Shown: in pieces, positions 3,133 through 64,000 of the stretch
Layout of the letters: each line of letters starts with the position of its first letter
How positions within the stretch are numbered: position 1 is the stretch's first letter
Origin: Marsupella aquatica
Lineage: Eukaryota; Plantae; Marchantiophyta
Direction of reading: 5' to 3'
Length of the DNA: 64,000 bases
Assembly (NCBI GenBank): GCA_973895155.1
Contig: OZ316891.1
Span: 9,549,875 to 9,613,874, forward strand
Notes under the pieces: model-generated
The model's input: only the letters and a program-made list of their open reading frames with translations
The model's database searches: none
Told to the model about the DNA's origin: nothing
Position numbers and translations under genes: made by a program

Positions 3133-3701
3133 ATTAGGAGCTACGGATTCACTAGATTTATTTTCTAGCTGATCAATTAGAGCCCAGTGCCTACGCAACC
3201 AATTTTTCCAGATTGTGATTATAATACATTAGGCAACACATCGATTGTAGTGAAACCCGTCCAAGAGCTGCAGGGTCCGAATGTTACCCGGCTGGTACAC
3301 AAATTACTGACCTCTTTGTAACTGATTGTACAGAATTTTCCATCAGTTTAATCCAATCGTGTGCCTGCTGTGCAAAGGCGAGTAGGCCATCACCTTGTCC
3401 ATCTATGAGTAAAACTGAACAAAAACTACTTCTTCTCTCATTGAAGAAGACGATCATCTACAATTAATGCCACGTTCTCCACTATTCTAGCCAGGCAAGG
3501 CATGACCCATGGACAATGAGCGCCGCCAAAGATGCCGTCTATCTATATTCATTCTGACGTACACTCACATCTCAGTTAACCTTTCCCATCCACTCACCAT
3601 CCAGTCATCTGAATCAGAAGACAACTTGATCGCCAAGTTCCTGCCCTACCATGCCGTTCTAACCAATCTCTCTAAGAAGTCTTCCAGTGCATCACCTCCA
3701 T

Positions 3702-4025
3702 AGCTCGGAATAGCATTCGCATCTTAGTCTCCAGTCTCATAGTTCAGCACCAGCATCCACTCTGCAGCGTAGTAGCTCCCAAATTTCCCAAATCTTCCAG
3801 ATTGGGGGTGAACATTTCCCCAAAATCTAGCTGACTGATGAATAAACCCATAATTTGCTTGGGAGCTCGGAATAGCATTCGCATCTTAGTCTCCAGTCTC
3901 ATAGTTCAGCACCAGCATCCACTCTGCAGCGTAGTAGCTCCCAAATTTCCCAAATCTTCCAGATTGGGGGTGAACATTTCCCCAAAATCTAGCTGACTGA
4001 TGAATAAACCCATAATTTGCTTGGG
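3702..4025. repeat. Tandem duplication, 2 x 162 bp, apparently identical copies
   Basis: AGCTCGGAATAGCATTCGCATC...ATAATTTGCTTGGG occurs at 3702-3863 and at 3864-4025. Confidence 0.9.
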
Positions 4026-5059
4026 AACTCTGATAAACTTCAACTTCTTGCCCAGAATTCTGAACAGCATCTCCCCTCGCTCCAGTGGAGTAAATGCCTT
4101 CCCAGGCCCTCAGATGGGCAAAGACCTTATTGACTTTCTCCTCATCTGACACACTCAGCAATAAACAGAGCCAGAGTCGCATCACTGATGGGCTTCAGGC
4201 AGTGAGTGGCCCATCCCCAAAATATCACATACGGCCCACCCCCCTGCACGGATTTCACCTGTCTTCCAAAGCTCTTGAAATCCTCTTTTTCTACAGCCAT
4301 AGCTTGGAGCTCCTCTGCTTAGCTATTTGGATGGAAACAAACCGAGACGGTCCCACGGCTCTCCCTGCATCCAACTATTCCTCGTTGCAGTCTAGTCGAG
4401 TCCCTGACTGATCCTCCCGGGCTGGCCAAGCAAGAGATTACCACATCTACTCTACAGTATCTATAGCAAACTGGGTTCGGTTAAATTTTCTGTTGAATTT
4501 TGAGCTTCAGCTCCAGCTCTTGAGGAGAATGATCGCAAATTAACGCAAGTGTGAATTACTGTACCGTTTCCATAGCCACCTGGGCTCGTCAAATTTGAGC
4601 TTGTAGTGGAGGCAAAACTGAAATGGACTAGTCAAGGCTCTGGCGACGCTACCGGTTGGGATGTCCCGCACGTCATCTCTTCCGTTTCCCTCGTATCATG
4701 AAGGTTGCATGACGATTTCCTGACAATCCTATCTATCCCAACTAGGTTGATTACCTCCTTTCCATCCACATAAATTCTGATGGGGCTTTGAATGGGCAAT
4801 CAGGCTCCTTGTCCTTATAAATAATCAATTGAGAGGCTACCGTCTAAAAAATCATTGTGCCTAATATATAATACTAATACCATCTTTCTTTCCATCCACA
4901 TAAATTTTGATGGGGATGAGCATCATTGTCTTGAGGTCGTGAGGTCTCACTGCACTCTAGAAGCCTAGACCCCAACTTTAGTTTCTCATTGGTAATATAT
5001 ATATATTTGTGTTTACTACTTCCACTCAATCTCCTTTATAAATGTGCACTCAATACCCA

Positions 5060-15105: not shown

Positions 15106-16230
15106 TCATGGACTTGTCCTGAGTTGGGCCCAAGCTCGACCCGGGCTGGAGTTTCCATGCCAGACATCGACACACCCGTCCTGCTTCTTATCGACACACT
15201 TGCCCACGATAAAGAGCGAGGTGCCATCTTCTCCCGCCAAGTCCATATTGGTTACCTCAATTAAACCCTCAGCCTTGATTCTCAGTAACAGCTTTCCCTC
15301 CGGTGAGAATTTGACGACCAGACCCTCCAGCCCATTCCTGGCCACGAACAAGTTCCCCTCTATGTCCGCTCTAATCCCATCGATTGATACCCACTCAGTC
15401 CCGTCCAGCTCCCCGAAGTCCACAAACAGTGTCTTGTTCGAAACTCCTCCGGTGCTCGGATCCACGACAAACTTCCAGATTCTGTTCACGACCGAAAACC
15501 CATCTTTGCTGAACTCTTCAGACAAGTAGAGAGTCCTCTCGTCGGGAGACAGCTCGACGCCGTTCGTGTTTCCAAACAATCCCAGGCGTACCGCTGTGAC
15601 GGGCTGCAGCTCATCGATCGACGAATTGTAGAAGGACGATGGCGTCGCGCATATCCAGAGATCGCCATCACCGACCGCCGTCGTCAGTTTGCCGAATTTC
15701 CCTCCTGAGGCATAGATCCGTCCACTCAGAGCCGCCACGGCCATGTCATTGGGCTGCGCCATGGTCTGGTTTCCGCAGAAAGCGTAGAGCCTCACTCGAC
15801 CATCTCGTGTCGACTGCAGAATGTGGACGATCTGGTGCCCTCGGACGTCGGTGGCGATGGCTCTGGACAGGAATTTCTTCGACAGCTCGCTTGACAATGG
15901 CAAGAATCGGAGGCCATTGTACGAGATGCTTCCCGTCTGATCGATGGAGTAGATTTCCTGGCTGACCTTCTCCTCGGGAGTGGCGATGGTGCCCAATCCA
16001 TTCGAAGTGCCGCCCAAGAAGGCCGTGGCATACGCCGTCCCCGTGTAGTCCACCGACGTTCCCTCAATGCCGAGGCCGAATTGTGAATTTCTCGACGTGA
16101 TGAACCGTGTGGCGTAGACTGTCGGTGCTTCATCGCTGTCCGCTGCTGCTGGATTAAGCAGCTGCAGCATGATAAGGCTTGAGCCCAGTGCAATCAAACG
16201 AAGTCTATCCATGAGAAAATATCTCTTCAT
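15106..16230 (-). CDS. Secreted SMP-30/gluconolactonase/LRE-family (Ca-dependent six-bladed beta-propeller) protein, intronless
   Basis: Open ORF with the ATG in an ACCACCATG context (alternative ATG at 16212) and a hydrophobic signal peptide ending at AAA-DS. Metal-ligand motifs are GIEG, QPND, NTNGVELSPDERTLY and IDGIRADIEGNLFVA. Confidence 0.88.
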   Translation of the reverse strand: MKRYFLMDRLRLIALGSSLIMLQLLNPAAADSDEAPTVYATRFITSRNSQFGLGIEGTSVDYTGTAYATAFLGGTSNGLGTIATPEEKVSQEIYSIDQTGSISYNGLRFLPLSSELSKKFLSRAIATDVRGHQIVHILQSTRDGRVRLYAFCGNQTMAQPNDMAVAALSGRIYASGGKFGKLTTAVGDGDLWICATPSSFYNSSIDELQPVTAVRLGLFGNTNGVELSPDERTLYLSEEFSKDGFSVVNRIWKFVVDPSTGGVSNKTLFVDFGELDGTEWVSIDGIRADIEGNLFVARNGLEGLVVKFSPEGKLLLRIKAEGLIEVTNMDLAGEDGTSLFIVGKCVDKKQDGCVDVWHGNSSPGRAWAQLRTSP

Positions 16231-17449
16231 GGTGGTACCAATGATCGAAGTTAATCTATTCACTTCGATACGAAAAGTACTACAGAATTGATTGAGCTCG
16301 AGAGTCCATTAATCAGTCCACAAAATTACAATGTCAGCGTAGATTCAAATCCCCTCGTGAATGACTAGCCACAGTACAGATCGCAAAGTCTAAGAAGAGC
16401 TGAAATCGACGTATCTACTGTGACACTGCCTATTTCTTCGCACATGACTTCAGTCTGTCTGCTGTCGATGTGCTAGACAAAATTTCAACTGCTATTCATG
16501 GTGTTCACTCGACCTACATATGTTTCATCTGATGTGCTGACTTGTGCTCAGGGACCTCTCAACTGTTCCAGTTAGCTTCTGCTATGCCACCGAAGTACCA
16601 AGGTAGTGTTCAGACGGTGATCCTGATGCGAAATTCAGAGAGTAAAATAGAGTGAGCTCAAGGCAAACCATTAAAATCATGATGATGGGTCGGATTTCCC
16701 TGGTTTCGCACTGTCAGTGAACTTAGGCGACATCATTAGATGCAAACGAAGAGCGGCGCAACGTATTTATGTGGGGAGATATCATAAAAAACTTCATTTT
16801 CACAGTTTTTTATTTTAGAAATATTTAAACATTTTTACAATTTATTACGTATCTCATTAGAGGTTTTTTTCAAAATTTCTGGCACCATAGCTTGTCATGT
16901 CAACAATAATTGTAATAAACAAGACTCGGTTATTTTATGAATTAAATTTATAATTTTTATTTGTGTTTGTGTCAATTTGAATGTAAATTTTGGGATACCG
17001 TGTTGTAAAAAGAAAAGTAAAAACATTAAAAATGCAAAGAATAGGACAATTAAAACTGTCACTATGTAACCATTTTAGTTACATTTTCAATTTTAAAACT
17101 TAAATTCAAAGATTTTTAAAAAATATTTTTCATATAATAAATAATGACTAATAACTAACTTGATAATTTCCTTGTTAAAGGGTAATTGGCACCTAGAGTA
17201 AGATTTCCAGCCCTTTGCAATTAAGGTAAACTACTAGCCATGGTCCGAACTTAAACACTGAACGAACTGATATAATTCATTTGATAAGACATTCATCTAA
17301 TTGCAAATGGACTTGTCACAGATTGAATTCTGACTCTTGTAGCTTGTGAATTTGGTAGCATGTAGCGAAAAGGCCTAATTTTGACAACTGCTTGTGATAA
17401 CCATGCTATCAATTAGCCAAGGGAGGGGTCCACGAACTAATTTACTAGT

Positions 17450-20375: not shown

Positions 20376-20894
20376 GAGAGTTTAGAATAGAATTCATCAA
20401 ACGAGGGTCATGATTACTGCTCATAAAGAGACAAGAGACCGAAGGAAGGCATTGCCGCAAGAACCCCAAGACAGTAGAGTTACGCAAGGGACATCCAGCA
20501 CTTAGTCCATCCAGCGCTGCAAATTCAGTGATTATTATGCTGTTTACATTTCTCGCAGGCCTCAACTCCCGTACCTTCTACATTGGGACCTGGGAACACA
20601 TAATGTAGCAGGAACTTATTATTCTCCACTGAAAACATTATGCGCGGCAAATTAATTAGTGGTGTTTACTTTGCTCATCTTTAGTTAATGCTTTTTACTT
20701 TGCTCACCTTTAATTATTAGACTCAACTCCCGTACCTACAGTATTGTGTGGGATGTGAGGACACGAAAATGTAAAGGTTACCCATGTGTGATTCAAGGAC
20801 ACTATTCTTTGGACACTTATTAATGGTTCCTCATTGCTTGTTCACTATCCACAACAATAAAAATAAATAAAAACATTTTTCTAAGTGTTACACA

Positions 20895-21170
20895 AGCTTC
20901 ATCTAAACCCCACTTTTGTGTGAGATTTGTGTAAACAGCTTCATCTGAACCCCACTTTTGGGTGAGGTTTTGTGTAAACAAGTGCGCACATAGGGGGATG
21001 AACCTGAGAGTGACCTTTTGGGTGGGTTTTGTGTAAACAGCTGTGTGCGTAGGGGATTTGAACTTGAGACCTTTTGGGTGTATTTTGTGTAAAACAGCTA
21101 TGCACGTAGGGGGATTTGAACTCGAGACTTCTGCCTCCCCACTTGCATGAGCTACCACCATGCCATTTGA
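20895..21170 (-). mobile_element. tRNA-derived SINE-like head followed by tandem B-box-containing repeats
   Basis: The minus strand has an A-box-like TGGCATGGTGG (~21166) and a B-box-like GAGTTCAAATCC (~21123). Then come ~60-bp units repeating GTTCAAATCCCCTACG..CAGCTGTTTACACAAAAC. Confidence 0.4.
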
Positions 21171-30922: not shown

Positions 30923-31428
30923 ATTTTACTAACCTATCCCCCAAACTACCCGATATTAGTAGCATGCCCCCCCAAATAAAACTTATTATCAACCAATCCC
31001 TCATTTGGTATTGGGTTCAATATTAACTAGTATATGAGTTCAGTTGCCATGATTGTGGCAACTCAATATTTGCTAGCCTTAACCTGCTGGCACCCCCTTC
31101 AACCCCCTGGCTTTCCCCCTTGCAGGGCATAGTTGCAGGTCCGGGAGGGGCAAAAATACATCATTTTTTGCTCCACACTCACTCACAAAATCCCGACACT
31201 TTTGGCCCTGGCTCATTTTTACTCAAAAAAATGCAGCGGGGAATTGAAGGGGGCCCGAGGGATGGTGGAGGGTTAAGGATAGGCACTAGAGAGTTGCCAC
31301 ATGGCAACATGAACCCGTATATAAGTTAATACCAACCCAAGTACAAAATGGGGGATGGGTTGATAATTAATTTTGTTTGGAGGACATGTTAATAATATTG
31401 GGTAGTTTGGGAGACAGGTTAGTAAAAA
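30923..31428. mobile_element. MITE/foldback element with ~140-bp imperfect terminal inverted repeats
   Basis: TTTTACTAACCTATCCCCCAAACTACCCGATATTA...GTTGCCATG..TGTGGCAACTC (30924-31064) is mirrored by GAGTTGCCACATGGCAAC...TAATATTGGGTAGTTTGGGAGACAGGTTAGTAAAA (31291-31427). No clear TSD. Confidence 0.75.
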
Positions 31429-33801
31429 ACTGTACATGCTTAAATCATTGTATCAGGATCCTAGGTGCTGCTTTGAATTGCTTTGATTGAATGATTGATG
31501 TTGCTTAGCTTGTTGTGATTGATTAGTTGAGGTTGAATTGAATCTAGAGACTTACATCTATACTGCGCCCATGACTCCCCACAGATTCAACAGAGCCAGC
31601 TTGTTTGACACCTTCTCTACCTCTGTGATTGAATGATATACACTAGGGTGTGTCAGAGCACTACCCTAAGCTAAGTCTTATGGCTAAAAGTTAATGGCCA
31701 TACCATCCTTATGGGGCACCTATTTTGGTAGCCCATAATATTACATTGCAGCAATAAATAAAATAAAATAAAATGTACCAATTAGAATATAACACATGTC
31801 CTATGCATGTATATGACACAAAAAAACTCTAACTTTCTTAGACAATTCCATTGAATATGATTCATTTAATGAGGGCATAATTATTTTTCTTTAAAGAAGA
31901 CCCAACAATTTAATGTACGTACCCTATTTTTCTTCCACAACTTTGGGAATCTTCCGTAAGGACCATGTAATGTCCTTGGCTATATTTTGTTGAATGTGAT
32001 GTGACACTCCGTGGACACTTATATTCCACATCTGTCAGCCTGGAGCTAGAGTAATGCCGCTATATGGCGGGACACCTTATGCCCTATTTTGGCTTATTAG
32101 AAGACCTTGCTATGCATTTTTATTTAAAACTGGCCTAGTCTATAGTCTATCACTTCACTTTGTGTTGGTTCGAATTTAGCAATTATTATGTAACCCCTTT
32201 AATTATGATATATTATCATGTATGTGATGAGAGTTTTATTGTGTAATTCGGTCCTTCTTATTGCATGACAATTTTTGACTCACCAAGCTGCATCAGTACA
32301 GAAACCTAATGCCCTGTAGGTTATATATCTCCATTTGTGAGTTAGAGAGTAATAGGTGTCGCGTAAATAGAGAACCTCTCAATAGGGCCTAAAAGCTATT
32401 GTACAACCTACTCAATACTGGGCTAAATATCGATGAATATAATTAGTTCAGAAAGGCACGTAAGTTGCAAACTAGTAATCATTTGTTTGTATGATTGGTC
32501 ACTGACTTCGCCCCTTGGCTACAGTACTAACGCCCCCTTCACTAATGGTGGCCTCAACTACTAATGGTGCTCCTTTGTGACAAAGGCGCCTCTGGCTGGA
32601 TTGTACGTGTGACAAAGGTGGCCTTGCTACACTTAATGCCCTTCATGATTTTTTATTTGTATTTGTCATGGCATTCTGGGAGCATAATGAGCATTATGCC
32701 CCCGACAAGATCTGGATCAGCTCCTCTGGAAGAGTCTCTTTACTTTTACTAAAGTTAAATAAAATGAAATTATGTCAGGTCTCATAAGTGTACCAAGGTC
32801 CTGTTTCTGGAGGGAGCATTATGGGCAGTAATAGCCCCTCAAAACTCTGGCGCTCATTTTTTGGGGGCATTATATGCCACACGGACCGAGTTTATTGTAT
32901 CCAAATTGTCCTATGGCGCCTTCTCCAAACCAAAGCAAAACCCTGAAATTTTGCCTATGAGCATTACTTTTAGTAAACGTGAGCTCTCTCAAGATTCCAA
33001 GAGTTTGGAAAACAAAACAAGCTTAGTGGAAGAGCCTAATTACATTGTATTGTTTTGTTGAAGCTGGCAACCAAACATTCCATGTTGAAGCTCTGGCTGG
33101 ACTGAGCCATGCAAGCAGTCTTCTGCGGTCGACAGTTTGTCTGCTAGAGGTGGGAAAATACTCATGGCAAGCCCTCGTTGATCCAGCACTGCTACCAGTT
33201 AACACTGCTGCTGCTGTCGATCATCAGGCTGAGCTCAAGTTCGGACCAGAGTTGAATGCTCAAATTAAGCAATCCATACATAGCTTGATGGTCAAGTTGG
33301 GTCAATCAGTTAGCCGCTCCCTTGAGAACGTCCTCACCTTAACTCGTGAACTCCAAATAATTGTTGTTATGAGACAGGCTTGCAGTAGAAGTTCCTAGAT
33401 CCCTGGGTGTTTCGCCCTACTGTTCTGTCACTGAGTTGTTGCGGACGCATTTCCACTTGTTTTTATTCTAACAACTTACAGCAATGACGATGATGACTTT
33501 GTGATGTATCCAAGGAGAGACAAATCTTTTCAACGTACTGTGCAATCGTTTGAACTTCACGGCCGGGACTTCGTGTGATATATGTATTCCCATGGTTGGA
33601 CAATAAGTGACAATGCCAATGGATTCCATAGCTCTTCGAACAATCATTAGTATTCGACATCTGTAATAACAAATTAAAGAAATCTGAACTCTGCATGCAG
33701 TGAACACAACAGTGCTAGTTGATCTTTTGAAAAATCTCAACGCCACCGTACTGAGTGTTGGAAATGAACCACACTCGAACGAAGATGGATACAGCCACAA
33801 A

Positions 33802-33872
33802 GGGCCTGTAGCTCAGTGGTAGAGCACTATGATGTACACGGGAGGTCCTAGGTTCAATTCCTAGCCGGTCCA
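33802..33872 (+). tRNA. tRNA-like sequence (pseudo-tRNA, anticodon arm degenerate) inside the 5' LTR
   Basis: Acceptor stem GGGCCTG/CCGGTCC (one mismatch), D arm GCTC-AGTGGTA-GAGC, T arm CTAGG-TTCAATT-CCTAG. The anticodon arm is short and poorly paired, so no isotype is assigned. Confidence 0.8.
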
Positions 33873-33996
33873 TGCTGTTGAAAGTTCCAACATGGTATCA
33901 GAGCCAAAGAAAAGGAGTTTCCCTTGTAGCGAGTGCGGCTCAAGGGTGGGTGTTGGAAATGAACCACACTCGAACGAAGATGGATACAGCCACAAA

Positions 33997-34067
33997 GGGC
34001 CTGTAGCTCAGTGGTAGAGCACTATGATGTACACGGGAGGTCCTAGGTTCAATTCCTAGCCGGTCCA
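33997..34067 (+). tRNA. tRNA-like sequence (identical second copy) inside the 3' LTR
   Basis: Same sequence as 33802-33872, offset by 195 bp. Confidence 0.8.
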
Positions 34068-34223
34068 TGCTGTTGAAAGTTCCAACACTGAGAAGAACAA
34101 GATTATCCGTTTTCAACCAGTTTGACTTTTCTAAAGGTCTTGATGGGATTTCAGTGCAAGCTTTAAAGATCTCATTCAGTTTACTGATTCTCAATGAATT
34201 CATTTACTGATTCCGTTCTTGCC

Positions 34224-34359
34224 ATTCCATTCTTGCCAGCGTTGCATCGATCCTGGTCTTGTATATATGTGCGCTCCCTGCTGGGGCTCACCTCAGTCAT
34301 TGAGTATCAGTAAACTGAGGTGAGCCCCAGCAGGAACGCAACGCTGGCAAGAATGGAAT
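34224..34359. repeat. Nested perfect inverted repeats (22 bp outer, 21 bp inner)
   Basis: 34224-34245 pairs with 34338-34359, and 34277-34297 pairs with 34314-34334. Confidence 0.9.
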
Positions 34360-34711
34360 CACTGGTCCCGAGGGGGATCAATGGAGATCAACAGACGAGA
34401 GAATCACGTACAGCTAACGAAGTAAGCGATCGTAGTGAGTGCAGGGAGAGATTGCTCCCGTAAATCCTTCCCTCAGGAAGTGGAGCAAATCTCAAGATAG
34501 TAGTACATAATGATGAAAGACACTTGGTCGCGCGCGCTATACACAGGGAAATTTTCCTACATTCCAACCGTTAATCCTCAGAGCGCAGTCGCGCGCTCTA
34601 CAGCGGCGTGGGCCACTATTTAATCCAGTCCAATCCAACCGACAATCATTCTCGAACATTGAATCAATCGAGTAGCAAAGCGAGACAAATGGACCCTTTT
34701 TCATTTTAGGT

Positions 34712-34844: not shown

Positions 34845-35330
34845 AGCTGGCCAGGGAATGAGCCGGAATGAGCCTACCGAGAGGTCCCAGGTTCAATCCC
34901 CTCCACATGCAAGGGTTGTGAAGGGTATGTGAGGTTCAATCCCCTCCACATGCAAGGGTTGTGAAGGGTGTGTGAGGTGTAGTGGTGAGAGTTCTGGTCC
35001 AACCCTCTCTCCTTCATGGTATGACCCCCCCTTGTGGGTTACCTTAAAGAGGTGCATGGTACCGGGTATGACCCACCTTGTGGGTTACCCTCCAGAGATG
35101 CATGCTCAGGAGTTAATCAGAGGTGCATGGTACCTTGTATGAACCCCCTTGTGGGTTACCCTACAGATGCACGTTCTGGAGTTAATCCTCTATTCTCTAT
35201 TGGATGGGTCAACTTTCAGTATTGAAGGCACCCGAGTTGATCCTCTATCCTCTGTTGGAGGGGCCAACTTTCAGTATTCAAAGAAAAAAAAATGGATGGG
35301 TCAACTTTCAGTATTCAAAGAAAAAAAAAC
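34845..35330 (+). mobile_element. SINE-like element: tRNA-like B box, internal tandem repeats, A-rich tail
   Basis: GAGGTCCCAGGTTCAATCCC (variable loop plus B box, ~34880-34900) with the B-box unit duplicated. GGTATGACCC..CTTGTGGGTTACC occurs 3 times, and CAACTTTCAGTATT occurs 3 times, the last two followed by A-runs. Confidence 0.4.
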
Positions 35331-35639: not shown

Positions 35640-37340
35640 CTATGAGAACGAATGGTTATTCTCCGCAGCCTTGTGGTCTATGTCTGCTTGTGCCATACCA
35701 TCGGCATCCTCACCAGAGAGGTCTTCCAGTGACCGTCCTTTCGTTTCAGGAACGAAAATCGCGGTAAACCCCAGTCCTAGGGTGCAGCATATTGCGAGAA
35801 GTAGAAAACTGTACTCGAATCCAATACCCTTAGGATAACCGGGGTCTGTTGAACCCCCGTGCGAGTCGTCCTGGCTCGCGTACAGGAAACCGAAGGTTCC
35901 AATGATGGATCCCGCCTTTCCTGCGGCGGACGAAATTCCGTGGCAAGTGGAGCGCAGCCTGGCGGGGAAGAGCTCGGCGGGCACGATGAAGGTGGTGGCA
36001 TTTGGGCCGAAATTGGAGAAGAAGAAAGTGAGTCCGTAGAGGATGATGAAAGCCAGAGCGTTTCCGTTCCTATACCCGGTTGGATACGCGGCTAAATCTG
36101 AAACCTGATATCCCCTCAACTTGTAGAAATCGAATGCCAGAATGTACATGAACACGCTCATCATGAAGAATCCCATCAGCTGGATTGGCTTACGACCAAT
36201 TATGTCGATGAACACAACGGTGAACCAGTACCCAGGCACAGTCCCCGCCAATGTAATGAAAGCCTGCGAGCGCGCAATTTTAAAGGTTTCCTCCAGAGCG
36301 CTCATGCTTTTCGGCGGAGAAACCCATCCGGACGCTTGAAACATTCTGGGCTGGAACAGACTCTGACTGTAAAAGGATACATCCAGCAGGAACCATGTCG
36401 TGCAAGTTCCGATCAACTCCATCCCGTGACGTCTAACAAATTCGTTGCTGAACAAACCAAATTCTGAGTTGTGGGTCGTCGCCGCCTTGGCAACTCCAGC
36501 GGTGTCGAAATTCGTGTGGAGAACTCTTTCCATATCGAGGACTGCTTGCTCCTGATTTTTCACGATCAAGGCAGTGTAGCGGGCAGTTTCGGGCATCTTA
36601 GATCTAGAATAGAAGGTCAAGGCAGCAGGGACTGCTCCGAGCATGAGTACTATCCGCCACACCCAATCCGCGTGCGGTGCAACAGAAGGATCGTTGTCTC
36701 CTGTATGGTTCGTCGCAGCACTGAAAGGTAGACGAGGATCAGAATTGTTGAATATGGCAGTAACACTGAGAGTCACAGCAGCTGCTGCGAGATATCCAAT
36801 TCCTTGCATTGCAAACACCGCAGCGACAAACGCCCCTCGCGTCCTTGTGTTCGAGTACTCCGACATGATGGTCGCAGACAGGGGGTAGTCTCCTCCAATG
36901 CCAAACCCGAGCCAGAACCGGAAGAAGCAGAGGGTGGTGATCACGGCGGTCGGTGAAGTACCAATTGATAGACCTTGGCCAAGCGAAGCAACGACCATTA
37001 GAGCCAGCGTGATTCCGTAAACTCTCTTTCGCCCCCATCTGTCTCCGGCCCAACCGAAGAAGAGCTGGCCGAAGAGAGTCCCACAGAGAGCCACTCCAAG
37101 AACACCAGCAAGCGGAACGGGAGGAAGAGTTCCCGGCTTAAGCTTAGAGGGATCGAGAGAGGCATGGGGATCATAATAGTAGATGCGACCGAGCAGCTTC
37201 TGCACGCATGATATTACAAAAAGATCATAAGCATCAGTGAAAAATCCCATGCCTGCGATCACGATTGCCTTGAAGTGGTACGTTTGCGTCTTCGCTCTGT
37301 CCAATGCTTTTAGCACTGGGTTGCCCCCTACGCTCGCCAT
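35640..37340 (-). CDS. PHT1: PHT1-family H+/inorganic phosphate transporter, copy 1 (intronless CDS)
   Basis: [13 protein letters not shown], the PHT1 signature [43 protein letters not shown] and PETKGRSLE. The first in-frame ATG is at 37340. Confidence 0.97.
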
Positions 37341-37975
37341 CTCCACGTACTGGACTTGCTAAATCTACGACAGGTTGGTCAGAAATTAAAAGTAGAAGAC
37401 AATTCGGGGATGAATGGCCGTCTAGCTCCACCGACGAGCTAATCAATCGGGCAGTCCTCGATCATGGGGATTGAATTCGAGCCTGCTGGCAACGTGGAAG
37501 TAAGGCTCTGCGAGACCTTATGTATCTGTAACTCTAGCCCATACGTGATGATGTTCAGCGATTCGATTGGGAGCGTGTCTGGTCGGGAAACGTGAGAAAA
37601 CGGTAAAACAGTTTGAGCTCGATTCAATCTGTCTTTCTCCGTCAACTGCTACTGAACCACCCCATTCTTTCCTTCGGCAGTGCCACGTACTTCATCAAAA
37701 GCGGACGATGACACTGATGTTGTTGATACTTGGTACCGGATCTATGCAAAGCATATGTCGGAAGGATTCGCCGTGTCTGGATTTTTCCAAGAAAAAGTGT
37801 TGTGTCTGCATATCTATGCGCATAGAAGTTATCCAGAACGCCAAACTGACCCATATTTATGCGCATATAAGTCAGCCAGAGCTCCATAGTGATCACTGTG
37901 TGGAGTACATAATGGATTAGAACGGAAGTTGGGGAAAAAGGGTCAATAGAAAATACCGAGCGATCAATGCTCTTA

Positions 37976-42063: not shown

Positions 42064-43761
42064 TTATGCGAACGAACGGCTATTCTCCGCAGCCTTCTGG
42101 TCGATGTCTGCATATGCCATACCATCGCCATTCTCACCAGAAAGGTCTTCCAGTGACCGTCCTTTCGTTTCAGGAATGAAAATGGCGGTGAACACGAATC
42201 CCAGGGTGGTGCATATTGCGAGAAGTAGAAAACTGTACTCGAATCCAATACCCTTAGGATAACCGGGGTCTGTTGAACCCCCGTGCGAGTCGTCCTGGCT
42301 CGCGTACAGGAAACCGAAGGTTCCAACGATGGATCCCGCCTTTCCTGCGGCGGACGAAATTCCGTGGCAAGTGGAGCGCAGCCTGGCGGGGAAGAGCTCG
42401 GCGGGCACGATGAAGGTGGTGGCATTTGGGCCGAAATTGGAGAAGAAGAAAGTGAGTCCGTAGATGATGATGAAAGCCAGAGCGTTTCCGTTCCTATACC
42501 CGGTTGGATACGCGGCTAAATCTGAAACCTGATATCCCCTCAACTTGTAGAAATCGAATGCCAGAATGTACATGAACACGCTCATCATGAAGAATCCCAT
42601 CAGCTGGATTGGCTTACGACCAACCCTGTCGATCAAAAAAACTGTGAACCAATACCCAGGCGCGGTACCCGCCAATGTAATGAAAGCCTGCGAGCGCGCA
42701 ATTTTAAAGGTTTCCTCCAGAGCGCTCATGCTTTTCGCCGGATAAACCCATCCGGACGCTTGGAACATTCTGGGCTGGAACAGACTCTGACTGTAAAAGG
42801 ATACATCCAGCAGGAACCATGTCGTGCAAGTTCCGATTAACTCCATCCCGTGACGGCTAACAAATTCGTTGGTGAACAAGCCGAAATCTGAGTTGTAGGT
42901 CGTCGCCGCCTTGGCAACTTCAGCGGTGTCGAACTTCGTGTGGAGAACTCTTTCCATATCGACGACTGCTTGCTCCTGATTTTTCACGATCAAGGCAGTA
43001 TAGCGAGGAGTTTCGGGCATCTGAGATCTATAATAGAAGGTCAAGGCAGCAGGGACTGCTCCGAGCATGAGTACTATCCGCCACACCCAATCCGCGTATC
43101 GCGCAAGAGAAGGATCGTTGTCTCCTGTATGGTTCGCGGCACTGAAAGGTGGACGAGGATCAGAGTTGTTGAATATGGCAGTAACACTGATAGTCACAGC
43201 AGCTGCTGTGAGATATCCAATTCCTTGCATCGCAAATACCGCAGCGACAAACGCCCCTCGCGTCTGGGTGTTCGAGTACTCCGACATGATGGTCGCAGAC
43301 AGGGGGTAGTCTCCTCCAATGCCAAACCCGAGCCAGAACCGGAAGAAGCAGAGGGTGGTGATCACGGCGGTCGGTGAAGTACCAATTGATAGACCTTGGC
43401 CAAGCGAAGCAACGATCATGAGCGCCAGTGTGATTCCGTAAGCCCTCTTTCGCCCCCATCTGTCTCCGGCCCAACCGAAGAAGAGCTGGCCGAAGAGAGT
43501 CCCACAGAGAGCCACTCCAAGAACACCAGCAAGCGGAACGGGAGGAAGAGTTCCCGGCCTAAGCTTAGAGGGATCGAGAGAGGCATGGGGATCATAATAG
43601 TAGATGCGACCGAGCAGCCTCTGCACGCATGATATTGCAAACAGATCATAAGCATCAGTGAAAAATCCCATGCCCGCGATCAGCACTGCCTTGAAATGGT
43701 ACGCTTGCGTCTTCGCTTTGTCCAATGCTTTGAGCACTGGGTTCCCCCCTACGCTCGCCAT
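42064..43761 (-). CDS. PHT1: PHT1-family phosphate transporter, copy 2
   Basis: Same motifs as copy 1, including [16 protein letters not shown] at 43761. Confidence 0.97.
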
Positions 43762-44081
43762 CTCCACGTACGTGCCGGACTAGCCAAATCTACGACCGGC
43801 TGGTCAGAAATTAAGGAGAAGACAATTCGGGGATGATGGCCGTCTAATTCCACCAACAAACTAACCAATCGGGCAGTCCTCGGGCGATCGTGGGGATCCA
43901 ATTTGGGCCTGCTGGCAATATGGAAGTAAGACCCTGCGGGGACTTATGTATCGGGCACACTAGCCCGTCCGTGATGATGTCCAGCAATTCGTTTTGAAAG
44001 CCTCTCTACTCGGGGACCGTGAGAAAACGGCAAAACAGTTTGAGCTAATTGAGTCAATTTGTCTTTCCTAGTCAACTGCTA

Positions 44082-52457: not shown

Positions 52458-54143
52458 CTACGCCAACGAACGCTTATTCTCCGCAGCCTTCTGTTCCATC
52501 TCCGCACTCGCCATATCATCCGCATCCTCACCAGAAAGGTCTTCAAGTGACCGTCCTTTCGTTTCAGGAATGAAAATGGCGGTAAACCCCAGTCCTAGGG
52601 TGCAGCATATTGCGAGAAGTAGAAAACTGTACTCGAATCCAATACCCGGAGAAAAATGCGGGTCTGTGCTACCCCCGTGCGACTCGTCCTGGCTCGCGTA
52701 CAGGAAACCGAAGGTTCCAACGATGGATCCCGCCTTTCCTGCGGCGGACGAAATTCCGTGGCAAGTGGAGCGCAGCCTGGCGGGGAAGAGCTCGGCGGGC
52801 ACGATGAAGGTGGTGGCATTTGGGCCGAAATTGGAGAAGAAGAAAGTGAGTCCGTAGAGGATGATGAAAGCCAGAGCGTTTCCGTTCCTATACCCGGTTG
52901 GATACGCGGCTGAATCTGAAACCTGATATCCCCTCAACTTGTAGAAATCGAATGCCAGAATGTACATGAACACGCTCATCATGAAGAATCCCATCAGCTG
53001 GATTGGCTTACGACCAATTATGTCGATGAACACAACGGTGAACCAGTACCCAGGCACAGTCCCCGCCAATGTAATGAAAGCCTGCGAGCGCGCAATTTTA
53101 AAGGTTTCCTCCAGAGCGCTCATGCTTTTCGCCGGATCAACCCATCCGGACGCTTGAAACATTCTGGGCTGGAACAGACTCTGACTGTAAAAGGATACAT
53201 CCAGCAGGAACCATGTCGTGCAAGTTCCGATCAACTCCATCCCGTGACGTCTAACAAATTCGTTGCTGAACAAACCAAATTCTGAGTTGTGGGTCGTCGC
53301 CGCCTTGGCAACTCCAGCGGTGTCGAAATTCGTGTGGAGAACTCTTTCCATATCGAGGACTGCTTGCTCCTGATTTTTCACGATCAAGGCAGTGTAGCGG
53401 GCAGTTTCGGGCATCTTAGATCTAGAATAGAAGGTCAAGGCAGCAGGAACTGCTCCGAGCATGAGTACTATCCGCCACACCCAATCCGCGTGTCGTGCAA
53501 CAGAAGGATCGTTGTCTCCTGTATGGGTCGCAGCACTGAAAGGTAGACGAGGATCAGAATTGTTGAATATGGCAGTAACACTGAGAGTCACAGCAGCTGC
53601 TGCGAGATATCCAATTCCTTGCATTGCAAACACCGCAGCGACAAACGCCCCTCGCGTCCTTGTGTTCGAGTACTCCGACATGATGGTCGCAGACAGGGGG
53701 TAGTCTCCTCCAATGCCAAACCCGAGCCAGAACCGGAAGAAGCAGAGGGTGGTGATCACGGCGGTCGGTGAAGTACCAATTGATAGACCTTGGCCAAGCG
53801 AAGCAACGACCATTAGCGCCAGCGTGATTCCGTAAACCCTCTTTCGCCCCCATCTGTCTCCGGCCCAACCGAAGAAGAGCTGGCCGAAGAGAGTCCCACA
53901 GAGAGCCACTCCAAGAACACCAGCAAGCGGAATGGGAGGAAGAGTTCCCGGCTTAAGGGTAGAGGCATGGGGTTCATAATAGTAGATGCGACCGAGCAGC
54001 TTCTGCACGCATGATATTACAAACAGATCATAAGCATCAGTGAAAAATCCCATGCCTGCGATAACGATTGCCTTGAAGTGGTACGTTTGCGTCTTCGCTT
54101 TGTCCAATGCTTTTAGCACTGGGTTGCCCCCTACGCTCGCCAT
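52458..54143 (-). CDS. PHT1: PHT1-family phosphate transporter, copy 3
   Basis: Same motifs as copy 1, including [16 protein letters not shown] at 54143. Confidence 0.97.
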
Positions 54144-55756
54144 CTCCACGTACTGCACTTGCTAAATCTACGACAGGTTGGTAAGAATTTAAAGGAGAAG
54201 ACAATTCGGGGATGATGACCGTCCAGCTCAACCGACTAACTAACCAATCGGGCAGTCCTCGGTCATGGGGATCCAATTCGAGCCTGCTGGCAATATTGAA
54301 GTAAGGCCCTGCGAGCGAGCTTGCGAGAACTTATGTATCCGCGATACTAGCCCTTCCGTGATGATGTACAGCGATAGAACTTGGGAGTGAGTCTGCTCGG
54401 GAAAACGTGAGAAAACGGTAAAAGCGTTTGGGCTTGATTCAATTTGTCTTTTGCTACTGTACCCAATTCTTTCTTTCGGCATGGCACGTACTCCGTCATT
54501 GAAAGAGGGCGAAGACACTGATGTCGTTGATACTTGGTACCGGATCTTTGCAAAGCATATGTTGGAAGGATTCCCCGTGTCTGGATTTTCTCACCAAGGT
54601 GTTCTGTCTGCATATCTATTGCGCATATAAATATAAGTTATCCAGAACTCCAAAGTGACCACCGCGTGGAGTATATAATGGAACACGGAAGTTGGGGGAA
54701 AAAAGGTCAATAAAATATCACCGAGCGATCAATGCTCTTAAAATATCCTCATCACTTGACAATACTGGCGACTATTTTGATCTGTGGCGACTATTTGATC
54801 AGACAAGATCGAGCTAGGAAGCTTTCAACCGCTAATGTACATAGCGGACAAGAAGCGCAAACATTGACTGAGGTGTGTACACGGACGGATCGACCAGAGT
54901 CGACAACAAGGCATATGTAATGGATGTTCGAGGCAGCTGTCACCGGTGATCAATACATATACTACGCACCAGATTGTCAACAAGCCTGCAGGACAATGCA
55001 AGAGTCTCGGCAGTTTACGCGCGCAAGCTTCATTTTGTTGTTTTTAATTGCTTTGTTGTTCCTCACTCCTTACTTTTATGATAGAAGTTTGAGAACACGG
55101 AAACCTCAGAGCATATATATACACAGCTCGGCCCATCCGAAGGCACCTCACAACAGTAAATTAGCCACGAAATATATTTTGCTGGGACAAAATTCTGCTG
55201 GGACAATTTTTCATTGGACAATCATGCTGCAGGGCTACGTATGACGAAGCGAACATGGGGACCTTGACGATATATGTTCAATTCGTGCTACTCTCGATTT
55301 ACGCCACAATCAGAGCCTAAGCAATACGGCATTGCAGATCCAATTGTTGTATTTGAAGAGTCCACGTAAAATTGTGTCGATCAACCCAATACACTTGTCT
55401 GATGATCACAAAATTCCATAACATGACATAAAGGTCAAGATCCTCAATTTAATTCTAATAGCTGCAGCCTCCTGACGCTTTCAAATGAATCATGTTACGT
55501 ACAACAGCCTGTCCCTTTGATAAATGAAGTTCTGGGAGGTTAAATTGTGTATATATTGAGGTGTAAAATGTGGTTAGTACAGTTGACACCGTATATGAAA
55601 ATGCTCGTTGTAAAGCTGCAAACAAGATAAATTCTTTGTACACGTCCAAGATTTACATTAAGTAATTTTACCCTGATCATGCAAGATGATTCAGACTTGA
55701 GATCGAGCTTGTACGTGTCCTGCATTATATTTATCGAAAATATCGTCAGATCCGAG

Positions 55757-57426: not shown

Positions 57427-59019
57427 GTTCTGGTTGTATAATTGGACTAAAATCAATGTGCCCAGAAAATCTGGGGAGGCCAGCACCACAAGAGGAGCTG
57501 TCCATTTAATTCTTGCAATCAATAGTTAATTAAGTTTGGACATTCAAACTGGATGTGGCACATGAAATTGGGTGTGCCATATAAACACATCAGTGGGAAA
57601 CTGACTCCCACCACCAGCCAGGAGTGGAAGCATGAGACCCCTACTCCAGGTTCCTGCCCATTGATTCACCACCACCTCACCAGTTTTCTTGTCAACATTG
57701 GACTCATCCCAATTTCCCTGGGTCTTCACTGAATGAAGCTTTAAGAGTTCATTTTTAGGGCACAGAATACTTTCATTTGCAGCGTTTACTAGGGTTTTGT
57801 CATCACAATCTTTGATGGGTTGTCAGCATGGCGATCTATGAATTTTCTTCTTTTCTTTGACGCTGAATCTTTCATGTGCAATAGACTTGCATGGTACATG
57901 GTACAACCCACAAGGGTTCTCTTTCTCCATGGCACCAACAAAACAATGGGTCTTTGATAGGTTGTCAGCATGGAGATCTTTAGGGTTTTTTTATCCTCAC
58001 TTTCCCAGGGGTCTTCAGAGCGTGGAGATCCAAGAGCTTTCTTTTTATGACATGGAAATTTTCATTCACAAGAGATTTATGTGCTACTTGGCACAATCCA
58101 CAAGAGGTTTGGCTGGGTTTGAATATTTTCTGTGATACTTCATCCTGGGTAGATTTGTGTAACACTTGGCATAACCCACACACACCTAGTACCAACCCTC
58201 CTTAACACCCATTGAGAGAGTGGGGCTTGAACCCAACTAAGACCCTCAACCGCAAGTCACTTCAACTAGACCAGTAGACCCTACTCAAGTGGTTTGATGA
58301 AAGTTTTTCCTCAGTTGTTTTGTGTAATTGAATTATCACTTTACTTAGGGTGACTTGTGACCTTTTATCACCAAAACAAACTGGAGGTTCATTTCTTGTT
58401 CTAAAAGTAGACTCCAGGGCAAACACATTTGAAATGAAGCTGAAAAAATACTGCAAATCACTTGAATGAAGTGCCAAGGTTTGGAAATTTTTGGGGCACG
58501 TCTGCAGGGGTGGAAGGAATAAAAAGGAACAACAGTCCCCACTGCTTGTAAATCCGGCCACACCTGAAATGAAATGTCAAAGATGGAATGATACACTAGA
58601 CAAAGCCCATTAGCTCATCACACTCTGGAAGTGGTAGATCTCCCCCCTTTTCTTTTCAAGTGGAATGCTGTAAAATTTTGGAGCTTGTATTTCATGACCC
58701 TATAGTTGATTTGATCTGCATCCATCCATCTTTTCTTTATTAGGGCGTCACACAGCTTCAAACTAAGTTGCAGACAATGACTTTTGGCATATATACACAA
58801 ATGGTTGTAACTTTTTCACAGTGAACATAATGTAAACGCTTAAAAAATCACTAACCTCTACAGTGACTTGCGGTCATGGCATACGACCAATCTTAATTTA
58901 ATATGGCAAAAAGTTAAGGACTACAAATTTGGTAGTCCTAACTTCTTCTGTTCGTAACCTTAACTACTAAGTTAAGGTCCATCAAAATAATTTGAAAATG
59001 TGAGACACCCTATTGTACT

Positions 59020-60430
59020 TTGTTTGGCCCTCTTTTAACAATAAACTGGAGTTAAATTTTTTTTCACTTTGAAGAGGAGCAGAAAAGAGTATTAGATAGC
59101 TAGCAATCATTATTGGTGCTGCATGTTTTTTCTCAGATTGCTTTGATTTCATGACCTTCCTCTAATGTAGATCCACATTCATCCATCTTTTTCTTCATTA
59201 CACTCTGTTTGGCCCTTTTTTTCCTAAAATAAACTTGGAGTGAATTATTTTCCCTTTGAAGAGGAGCAGAAACTGTAGCTAGCCATCATTATTGGTCTAC
59301 CATTTTAGATCCCTTGCTTATATTTCAGGCTACACTAGATCCACATCCACCCATCTTTTGTTTGGCCCTTTTTGGTAATAAACTTGGAGTGTATTATATT
59401 CACTTTGAAGAGGACCAGATAGCCACAGAAGCCATCCATCATCATTCGTCTAACATTTTCGATCCCTTGCTTATATTTCAGCCTACAGTAGATCCACATC
59501 AACCCACCTTTTGTTTAGCCCTTTTTGGTAAATGAACTTGGAGTCTGTTATTTTCACTTTGAAGAGGAGCAGATAGTTATAGAAGCCATCCATCATTATT
59601 AATCTAACATTTCTATCCTTTGCTTATATTTCAGGCTACAGTAGATCCACATCAACCCATCTTTTGTTGGGCCCTTTTTGGTAAATAAAGTTGGAGTGTA
59701 TTATTTTCACTTTGAAGAGGAGGAGGTAGTTATAGAAGCCATCCATCATTATTGGTCTGACTAACATTTTTTATCCTTTGCTTATATTTCAGGCTACAGT
59801 AGACAGACATCAACCCACCTTTTGTTGGGCCCTTTTTGGTAAATAAACTTGGAGTGACTGTATTATTTTCACTTTGAAGAGGAGGAGGTAGTTATAGAAG
59901 CCATGCATCATTATTAATCTAACATTTTTTATACTTTGCTTATATTTCAGGCTACAGTAGATCCACATGAACCCATCTTTTGTTGGGCCCTTTTCGGTAA
60001 ATAAACTTGGAGTGACTGTATTATTTTCACTTTGAAGTGGAGCAGATAGTTATACAAGCCATCCATCATTATTGGTCTAATATTTTTTGATCCCTTGCTT
60101 ATATTTCAGGCTACAGTGGATCCACATGAACCCATCTTTTGTTGGGTCCTTTTTGGTAAATAGACTTGGAGTGTATTATTGTCACTTTGAAGAGGAGCAG
60201 GTAGTTATAGAAGCCATCCATCATTATTGGTCTAACATTTTCGATCCCTTGCTTATATTTCAGGTTACAGTGGATCCACATGAACCCATCTTTGGTTGGG
60301 CCCTTTTTGGTAAATAGACTTGGAGTGTATTATTGTCACTTTGAAGAGGAGCAGGTAGCTCTAGAAGCCATCATTATTGGTGTAACACTCTCTTGCGTGT
60401 ATTGCGTGACCTTCCTCTACAGTAGATCCA
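59020..60430. repeat. Tandem array of ~155-bp units, ~9 copies
   Basis: A CACTTTGAAGAGGA-type anchor recurs at ~59065, 59252, 59401, 59555, 59708, 59870, 60028, 60183 and 60337, with conserved sequence between anchors. Confidence 0.92.
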
Positions 60431-61522
60431 TAGCCATTCATCTGCTAGACCATCTTTGACATCGCTCGCTTGGTTTGTCAATTGCTTCGCAACGACTATA
60501 GTAGATTGAAGCTCTCTGTTCTGGCTTCACGCAGCAATCTTCTCGGCTCTATCAATTGACCTCTGTGTCCTTCAAGCAGTTCCCCACTAGGTCGGAGCAT
60601 TTCCTCAAATCTGAGCTTTACTCACACAGCGTCTCGTTTCTGTTGGCTCGTACCTTTGGTTTAAGCATTTCGTTGAAGCTTAGCACAGACATCTTAGTTT
60701 TTCAAAGATTGCCTTGTCTGTGCACTGGATATTCGAGCATTCTGTGATGAGCGATCTTTGACATACTAAAATTTCGGCTCCTGCAGGTCACCAACTTCAG
60801 CTTCTCTCTCTGGCAGGCAATCGGACTCCCGGTCATCATGGTCTAACAAGAAGCAACTGAAACAGAATTAAGAGTCTGGCCCGGCTCCTTACCCTCCTGT
60901 CTCTTGCGATTTCTCCTTGCAGACAACGATTTTGCTAGGGAGAGCCCTCACTTCGCTCGGGAATCAAGTATCATGGACAACGGGGGTATTTGGTCTGACT
61001 GTTGCCCTTGTTAGCTTTCCTTCTTCGTTTCCTTTCAGAATTGTTTTCCAGAATCGCTTTTCTCTGCGGGACAACCCCAAACCCTAAACCTATTGACTCA
61101 GTTTCCATTTACAGTGAAAAACTGCTGCGTGCTTTGATCCTCAGTGTCCCATCGCCATCACGACGGCTTGGATCTGAATTCCTAGCCGCTGGCAGACCAT
61201 CAGCCAGGGCAGGGTAGTTGCCAATGTGTTTATCTTCCTGCTGTGGGTCCATCTGTTCGTTGCTTGATTACTACTTTGATCATCATGCTCAGCTAGCTTT
61301 CAGAAGTCTTTTAATCATGAGTGTCCTTAAGATACCAAAGGAGAACGGCTGTCCATCTGAATTCCACATTCTTCCTCCTGAGGGAGTGCTGATGAGCAGT
61401 CGAAAGCTTGATTGTCGTGATGGTGTCTCATTTTCTGGTTTCAAAATCTGCGGTTGCAGAACCGGAGGATTTCGCAGGCAACACTGGCGGCAAGTGATAT
61501 AGCCATCCAACATAAGAGAAAA

Positions 61523-63753: not shown

Positions 63754-64000
63754 TCAATATGGCCTCGCTTCTCCTCTGTGTCCAGCCGTCACAACGTTGT
63801 CCTCATCCTCTCCGGAAAGGTCTTCCAATGATCGTCCTTTTGTTTCAGGAACGAAAATGGCGGTAAACCCGAATCCCAGGGTGGAGCATATTGCGAGAAG
63901 TAGAAAACTGTACTTGTATCCAATACCCGGAGAATAATGCGCGTCTACCTTACCCCCGTGCGAATTGTCCTGGCTCGCGTATAGGAAACCGAAGGTTCCG
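63754..64000 (-). CDS. PHT1: 3' end of a fourth PHT1 copy (truncated by the window edge)
   Basis: Minus strand reads [81 protein letters not shown]. Confidence 0.92.
   Translation of the reverse strand, partial: GTFGFLYASQDNSHGGKVDAHYSPGIGYKYSFLLLAICSTLGFGFTAIFVPETKGRSLEDLSGEDEDNVVTAGHRGEARPY

What the first reader, a model, noticed from the sequence alone, without database searches (positions are those of the whole stretch)
33751..34092. 332-bp LTR retrotransposon whose LTRs are built around a tRNA gene (Pol III-driven TRIM)
Seen in sequence: two identical 137-bp LTRs with perfect 8-bp terminal inverted repeats, a 58-bp internal region, a 14-nt PBS (TGGTATCAGAGCCA), a purine tract abutting the 3' LTR, and a 5-bp TSD (CTGAG). 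Each LTR contains a 71-nt cloverleaf with an intact A box (TAGCTCAGTGG) and B box (GGTTCAATTCC) but a decayed anticodon arm. Established knowledge: this PBS is the plant initiator tRNA-Met primer site, and Cassandra TRIMs use 5S-derived Pol III promoters in their LTRs. From memory, a tRNA-carrying TRIM group called Helenus has been described bioinformatically, so the class may not be new even if this family is. Inference: this is a SINE/LTR hybrid that borrows a tRNA promoter and an autonomous partner's RT and integrase. Identical LTRs imply a very recent insertion. A tRNA scanner would misannotate it as two tRNA genes.
Basis: partly seen in the sequence, partly recalled or inferred. Interest (0 to 1): 0.92.

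Follow-up and report, generated by a model that had tools for sequence, protein, structure and literature searches.

The report
Liverwort tRNA-bearing mini retrotransposon (Helenus)
A 332-base, gene-less jumping element with a tRNA look-alike in each end repeat sits at this spot in one sample and is missing from the same spot in others; it belongs to the Helenus type described in 2024, is likely copied by RNA polymerase III, and comes from what is likely a liverwort, a plant group where I found no report of such elements.

Summary
The anatomy is exact: two identical 137-nt LTRs, a 58-nt interior with PBS and purine tract, a 5-bp TSD, and a tRNA-like unit in each LTR (Rfam 46.1 bits). It has moved. 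Public runs hold hundreds of related contigs with unrelated flanks, and 2 of 4 runs laid show this site empty, with one TSD copy and flanks identical to the window.

It meets every testable defining feature of Helenus (Kojima 2024, PMC10886601), so the kind is known. This scan has also noted Helenus-type elements in other genomes.

What is new: the host is likely a liverwort, whereas the only plant Helenus in that paper is from Selaginella. By eye, the tRNA-like core is closest to the Selaginella family and to one from a basidiomycete fungus (22 and 21 of 28 non-box positions; three controls 10-13). That points to a lineage shared by plants and fungi, or to separate captures of the same tRNA type.

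Pol III transcription, the helper element and the parent tRNA are untested. Verdict: new member of a known kind, interest 0.42.

The parts
33751..33755 (+). Left target-site duplication (CTGAG)
   Evidence: a single copy at the empty site (joint skips 337 = 332 + 5)
33756..33892 (+). 5' LTR, 137 nt, TG...CA ends, 8-bp terminal inverted repeat
   Evidence: loose ends of other copies fall at these termini
33756..33801 (+). Predicted U3 part of the LTR (46 nt upstream of the tRNA-like unit; no TATA)
   Evidence: U3 assignment inferred
33802..33872 (+). tRNA-like unit, 71 nt: acceptor stem 6 of 7 pairs, D stem 4 of 4, T stem 5 of 5, anticodon arm one base short
33809..33819 (+). A box
33851..33861 (+). 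B box
33873..33892 (+). Predicted U5 part of the LTR (20 nt, no T4 run)
   Evidence: U5 assignment inferred
33893..33906 (+). Primer-binding site directly after the LTR
   Evidence: the same 12-mer is the Cassandra PBS; match to initiator tRNA-Met is recalled
33893..33950 (+). Non-coding interior, 58 nt
   Evidence: longest ATG-started frame in the whole element is 44 codons
33942..33950 (+). Polypurine tract (8 of 9 purines here; pure in most family copies)
33951..34087 (+). 3' LTR, identical to the 5' LTR
33997..34067 (+). Second tRNA-like unit (A box 34004-34014, B box 34046-34056)
34088..34092 (+). Right target-site duplication (CTGAG)
34110..34113 (+). First T4 run downstream, in the flank: predicted end of a Pol III read-through transcript
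   Evidence: function inferred

Best explanation
[quoted passage not shown] Shown: the anatomy, the dispersed family, the filled and empty alleles. Inferred steps: (1) Pol III starts near 33802 in the 5' LTR, guided by the A and B boxes; (2) it runs through U5, PBS, interior, purine tract and the 3' LTR, and, since the element has no T4 run, would stop at the first T4 in the flank (34110-34113), giving about 310 nt with the tRNA-like unit and U5 repeated at both ends; (3) host initiator tRNA-Met primes at the PBS and the purine tract primes the second strand; (4) a helper's integrase joins the TG...CA ends and makes the 5-bp duplication. The helper is probably a Copia element by analogy with fungal Helenus, but a Gypsy helper is not excluded.
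For: Anatomy. Family: 284, 190, 425 and 452 contigs laid in the 4 runs, from over 99% to under 90% alike; summed depth over the element about a hundred times that of the flanks (X1: 18 against 2265-4063; not a copy number); loose ends at the exact LTR termini with consensus agreement of 0.42-0.53, i.e. unrelated flanks; one X1 contig of 2483 nt carries a whole diverged copy with 41 differences. Polymorphism: X1 has both junctions with 0 differences; X3 and X4 show a joint skipping 337 nt, with 42 letters on the short side, and contigs there match the right flank with 0 differences over 441 and 329 nt. Helenus definition and the Selaginella member: LTR 120, interior 85, 5-bp TSD. Host: best named hit Calypogeia fissa for two window proteins, 71% and 74%.
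Against: No RNA evidence of any kind bears on Pol III use. Kojima states that Pol III function of Helenus is not experimentally validated. The element lacks the T4 run that follows the tRNA-like part in 26 of 26 complete rust-fungal LTRs read in supplement part 1 (by eye) and in the Selaginella LTR, although fish Helenus LTRs lack it too and 73% of shuffles have no T4 either. The cloverleaf is not the predicted best fold (-16.3 against -20.7 kcal/mol; z 0.06). TSDs of other copies could not be read. No helper was found or searchable.
Confidence: 0.85

Rival explanations
1. It is an ordinary Pol II-driven TRIM in which the tRNA-like piece is a captured passenger (old SINE or tRNA) with no role in copying.
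For: No RNA data; no T4 terminator in the element; other SINE-like B-box units exist in this window and could supply such captures.
Against: Both boxes are intact while the anticodon arm has decayed; only 46 nt lie upstream of the unit, with no TATA or AATAAA; the same unit sits in the same position in the Selaginella family.
Confidence: 0.1
2. The tRNA-like unit acts as folded RNA: trimmed by RNase P/Z to set the transcript ends, or used as a decoy for packaging by the helper, in addition to or instead of being a DNA promoter.
For: Against the Selaginella family, 4 of 7 differences in the acceptor and T arms form two double-sided changes that keep pairing, 1 keeps a pair on one side, 1 is in the loop and 1 breaks a pair (by eye). 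No internal terminator, so another way to set the 3' end would be useful.
Against: The same pattern arises if the two families took different working tRNA genes. The cloverleaf is not the predicted best fold. Full P/Z cutting of both units would destroy the template (inference).
Confidence: 0.15
3. The element primes its own reverse transcription with its tRNA-like RNA.
For: A lead from notes on diatom elements; nothing here.
Against: Only 3 contiguous pairs with the PBS as encoded and 4 with CCA added; the longest PBS complement anywhere in the LTR is 5 nt. Kojima also found no such complementarity in Helenus.
Confidence: 0.02
4. It is a local tandem duplication of a tRNA gene or pseudogene that mimics an LTR element.
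For: The window has many two-copy tandem duplications.
Against: The empty allele has neither copy and one CTGAG; related copies end at the LTR termini in unrelated flanks; PBS, purine tract and inverted ends are all in place.
Confidence: 0.01

Closest known systems
Helenus-1_SMo, Selaginella moellendorffii (Kojima 2024, PMC10886601)
   Same: TRIM of about the same size (325 against 332), 5-bp TSD, same PBS type, same last 8 LTR bases and 7 of the first 8; tRNA-like core identical at 51 of 58 positions outside the anticodon arm (by eye).
   Different: LTR 120 against 137, interior 85 against 58 with no evident likeness past the PBS, different anticodon arm and U3, T4 run near the LTR end that this element lacks; lycophyte host. 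A different family.
Helenus-1_AmAr, basidiomycete Amylostereum areolatum (same paper, supplement)
   Same: tRNA-like core identical at 50 of 58 positions with two extra D-loop bases; 5-bp TSD; TGTTG...CAACA ends (by eye).
   Different: Fungal host, LTR 209, total 503, PBS of the type seen in other fungal families, different anticodon arm.
Cassandra TRIM (PMC7215508, passages read)
   Same: Pol III-type promoter inside each LTR, same 12-nt PBS, non-coding plant TRIM.
   Different: Carries 5S rRNA sequence (A and C boxes), 565-860 bp, reported from vascular plants; shown to be transcribed.
Tcn1-like chromoviruses (PMC2864245, abstract read)
   Same: A precedent for an LTR retrotransposon clade found in basidiomycetes, mosses and Selaginella, explained by retention or horizontal transfer.
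   Different: Autonomous, protein-coding Gypsy elements with no tRNA-like unit.

Membership tests
Helenus (Kojima 2024) | Short TRIM with two LTRs (observed range 311-1263 bp) | tested here: met
   332 bp, two identical 137-nt LTRs
Helenus (Kojima 2024) | tRNA-derived sequence inside each LTR | tested here: met
   Rfam RF00005, 46.1 bits, both LTRs
Helenus (Kojima 2024) | Box A with TRGCY and YGG, box B with GGTTC | tested here: met
Helenus (Kojima 2024) | PBS and polypurine tract between the LTRs, no mobilisation proteins | tested here: met
   tract 8 of 9 purines, pure in most family copies
Helenus (Kojima 2024) | 5-bp TSD in plant and fungal members | tested here: met
   CTGAG twice; once at the empty allele. 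TSDs of other copies not readable
Helenus (Kojima 2024) | tRNA-like unit unlikely to be a working tRNA and not complementary to the PBS | tested here: met
   Anticodon arm one base short, ARAGORN negative; at most 4 contiguous pairs with the PBS
Helenus (Kojima 2024) | Interspersed multi-copy family | tested here: met
   (contigs of 4 runs); no exact copy count
Helenus / TRIMp3 | Transcribed by RNA polymerase III (proposed, validated only for Cassandra) | not testable with these tools
   needs RACE, inhibitor or ChIP data
Helenus / TRIMp3 | Mobilised in trans by an autonomous LTR retrotransposon | not testable with these tools
   no host genome held
Helenus-1_SMo family | 120-bp LTR and 85-bp interior matching the consensus | tested here: not met
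   137 and 58; likeness limited to LTR ends, tRNA core and PBS (by eye)
Cassandra | 5S rRNA-derived sequence in the LTR | tested here: not met
   no 5S match in Rfam scans; tRNA match instead
tRNA-derived SINE | Single 5' tRNA head, A-rich or repeat tail, no LTRs (definition partly recalled) | tested here: not met
   two LTRs, PBS, purine tract, no tail

The most novel reading that the evidence does not exclude
The liverwort, Selaginella and Amylostereum elements are one Helenus lineage that crossed between basidiomycete fungi and early-diverging land plants (or has persisted in plants since before bryophytes and vascular plants split), keeping its tRNA-like acceptor and T arms paired while swapping its primer site to each host's initiator tRNA. 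The liverwort family is still moving, so it would be the first system in which the Pol III step and the helper of a Helenus element could be tested in a haploid plant.
Probability: 0.3. Interest if true: 0.68.

Novelty: new member of a known kind. Interest (0 to 1): 0.42.

Why it matters
It extends Pol III-type mini retrotransposons to a likely bryophyte host; the 2024 paper lists one plant species, and my searches found no bryophyte report. The filled and empty alleles with identical flanks are direct evidence of recent movement. That makes the open questions about Helenus (is it really Pol III-driven, which element carries it) testable. The likeness of its core to lycophyte and basidiomycete families raises a plant-fungus transfer question. 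In practice such families can inflate tRNA gene counts: Rfam calls both LTRs tRNA above threshold.

Tried and rejected
No host genome is held, so copies, solo LTRs, other TSDs, host tRNA genes and the helper could not be searched. No second copy or second PBS in the 64-kb window. Pattern scans found 0 matches: generic A box, B box, LTR end and PBS pattern in metagenome and viral contigs; core pattern in metagenome, prokaryote genome and viral contigs. These collections hold little plant DNA, so the blanks say nothing about spread. No RNA holder listed among 13 runs; not evidence on expression. Parent tRNA not identified: best phage tRNA matches were 74-83% and of mixed types among 25 rows listed. 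The acceptor has G3.U70 and A73, recalled as alanine marks; untested. Self-priming rejected. Tandem tRNA duplication rejected. Folding of the LTR and interior is not unusual (z 0.52 and -1.26). Weak miRNA and mascRNA Rfam hits were below threshold and ignored. Earlier notes found by sequence were unrelated prokaryotic tRNA cases; none exist for this genome. The Marchantiales preprint had nothing on TRIMs.

Full report
OBSERVATION. Everything described is at the stated coordinates: identical 137-nt LTRs at 33756-33892 and 33951-34087, an 8-bp terminal inverted repeat, a 58-nt interior opening with the PBS, and CTGAG on both sides. Rfam scores a tRNA in each LTR at 46.1 bits (gathering 29), with acceptor, D and T arms aligned and the anticodon arm not; these are the only two above-threshold RNA family matches in the window. 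ARAGORN calls none. Pairing is 6 of 7 in the acceptor stem, 4 of 4 in the D stem, 5 of 5 in the T stem; the anticodon arm is one base short. A combined box, LTR-end and PBS pattern occurs once here and in 0 of 100 shuffles. The purine tract has 8 of 9 purines.

HOST AND SETTING. Two window proteins have the liverwort Calypogeia fissa as best named hit: an SGL-family protein at 71% (then Riccia 52%, Marchantia 48%) and a phosphate transporter at 74% (other Calypogeia copies 63-68%, Riccia and Marchantia 59-65%, Selaginella 61%). The host is therefore likely a liverwort; this is inference from best hits, without a tree. The element lies about 1.5 kb beyond the stop of a PHT1-type gene on the minus strand (35640-37358) and about 350 nt after a frame with no Pfam match, so it does not interrupt a recognised gene.

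IT IS A FAMILY AND IT HAS MOVED. Thirteen runs hold part of the stretch; I laid the 4 with the largest shares. They gave 284, 190, 425 and 452 contigs spanning identity classes from over 99% to under 90%. Summed depth rises about a hundredfold over the element and drops at its ends (X1: 18 in the flanks, 2265-4063 inside); the tool warns that this is not a copy number, so I read it only as many copies. Loose ends cluster at the exact LTR termini (in X1, 6 contigs before 33756, 6 before 33951, 5 behind 33892, 8 behind 34087) with consensus agreement near 0.5, so the flanks differ; only the best-supported rows were shown. X1 carries both junctions of this site with 0 differences; it may be the source sample and is not independent support. 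X3 and X4 (another organism label, another study) show a joint from 33749 to 34087 that skips 337 nt, the element plus one TSD, with 42 letters on the short side. Their contigs match the right flank with 0 differences over 441 nt (X3) and 329 nt (X4), and two X3 contigs of similar depth match 422 nt of the left flank exactly. X2 barely covers the flanks and says nothing. Zero differences in 441 nt bounds flank divergence to under 0.7%, tighter than the 2.2% from the LTR pair. An empty site with one TSD copy is the pre-insertion state, as LTR elements do not excise cleanly (established knowledge). Most family depth (77-94% across the 4 runs) has A at 33947, a pure purine tract.

HOW IT LIKELY WORKS. 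The boxes are intact, the anticodon arm is not, and only 46 nt without a TATA lie upstream, so the unit most likely serves as an internal Pol III promoter. Transcription from about 33802 would cover tRNA-like unit, U5, PBS, interior, purine tract and 3' LTR. There is no T4 run on the plus strand of the element; the first lies at 34110, so a read-through RNA of about 310 nt is predicted, with terminal repeats enough for strand transfer. Absence of T4 is not significant in itself (73% of shuffles lack one). It differs from 26 of 26 complete rust-fungal Helenus LTRs in supplement part 1 (by eye) and from the Selaginella LTR, but matches the fish LTRs. The PBS 12-mer is the one given for Cassandra; that it pairs with initiator tRNA-Met is recalled. 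Self-priming fails (at most 4 contiguous pairs). The helper is unknown. Kojima argues for Copia in fungal Helenus; the PBS and TSD length here do not exclude Gypsy (recalled). All of these steps are inferred; no RNA holder was listed.

COMPARISON WITH WHAT IS KNOWN. Kojima 2024 (PMC10886601; I read the outline, parts 1-4 of 6, the tables and legends, passages, supplement parts 1 and 5 of 11 and four searches in it; figures not held, Fig. S1 isotype calls not read) defines Helenus as TRIMs with tRNA-derived LTR sequence, 311-1263 bp, 5-bp TSD in fungi and plants, with Selaginella moellendorffii the only plant host. Every feature I could test is met. It is not the Selaginella family itself (LTR 120, interior 85). 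Marchantia, Riccia, Calypogeia, Physcomitrium and Anthoceros do not appear in the supplement, so bryophytes may simply not have been screened. A search for Helenus or TRIMp3 from 2024 on gave 21 papers, 20 listed, 4 about transposons; besides Kojima I read passages of two, which only cite it (PMC12859917; PMC13570524), and saw PMC10946416 in the listing only. Searches combining liverwort or bryophyte with TRIM or Cassandra terms gave no such report. Gao et al. 2016 (PMC4717578, passages) found no TRIMs in Physcomitrella and do not mention Marchantia. The library lacks most subscription journals and Repbase was not searchable, so absence from print is not proven. This scan has noted Helenus-type elements in several other genomes, fungi, a yeast and a diatom among them (8 notes, unchecked).

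A POSSIBLE PLANT-FUNGUS LINK. All comparisons here are by eye on published consensus sequences, for 5 families picked from the parts of the supplement I saw, not a systematic ranking of all of them. Outside the anticodon arm the core matches Helenus-1_SMo at 51 of 58 positions and the basidiomycete Helenus-1_AmAr at 50 of 58 with two gaps; an oyster family gives 41 and a wasp family 36. At the 28 positions outside the boxes and D arm the counts are 22 (Selaginella), 21 (Amylostereum), 13 (Coprinopsis), 12 (oyster) and 10 (wasp); Selaginella and Amylostereum share 26 of 28. A 20-nt core motif occurs once in the whole supplement, in the Selaginella LTR, and a 9-nt one twice, in Selaginella and Amylostereum (line breaks can hide hits). 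Against Selaginella, two stem pairs have changed on both sides and still pair. Two readings fit: one lineage, old in plants or transferred between fungi and plants, with selection on the fold; or separate captures of the same tRNA type. U3 and the interior show no clear likeness, which gives no help. A precedent for basidiomycete, moss and Selaginella sharing exists for Tcn1-like elements (PMC2864245, abstract only). Host tRNA sets would decide, and were not available.

VERDICT. Real, mobile, recently inserted; a new family of the known Helenus type in a likely new host group. Novelty: new member of a known kind. Interest 0.42; 0.68 if the shared plant-fungus lineage holds (probability about 0.3).

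Noticed in passing
window 20890-21165 (minus strand): tRNA/SINE-like unit with an A-box-like stretch and a B box, followed by tandem units of about 56 nt that repeat the B box; no Rfam tRNA match.
   Followed up: partly
window 34860-34978: 3' half of a tRNA-like sequence with a B box and a 43-nt two-copy tandem, 800 nt from the element; perhaps a SINE remnant.
   Followed up: partly
window 34176-34361 and 30924-31427: Long nested inverted repeats, MITE- or hairpin-like; the first has only sub-threshold miRNA matches.
   Followed up: no
window 35640-37358, 42064-43779, 52458-54161, 63800-63999: Three intronless PHT1-type phosphate transporter copies in duplicated blocks of about 83% identity, plus the end of a fourth at the window edge; closest solved structure is named inorganic phosphate transporter 1-11.
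   Followed up: partly
window 15106-16308 (minus strand): Single-exon SGL/gluconolactonase gene whose named plant hits are all liverworts and whose next hits are mostly Glomeromycota fungi (39-45%); a possible old fungus-liverwort gene transfer.
   Followed up: no
window 59017-60443: Satellite-like array of about 154-158-nt units, over 7 copies.
   Followed up: no
PMC10886601 supplement part 1: 26 of 26 complete rust-fungal Helenus LTRs carry a T4 run just after the tRNA-like part, which could be a leaky Pol III terminator; a search of the main text for terminator terms showed them only for Cassandra.
   Followed up: partly
window 33300-34600, runs X3 and X4: Besides the allele identical to the window flanks, both runs hold a second, more diverged version of the flanks, in X3 also without the element.
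   Followed up: no
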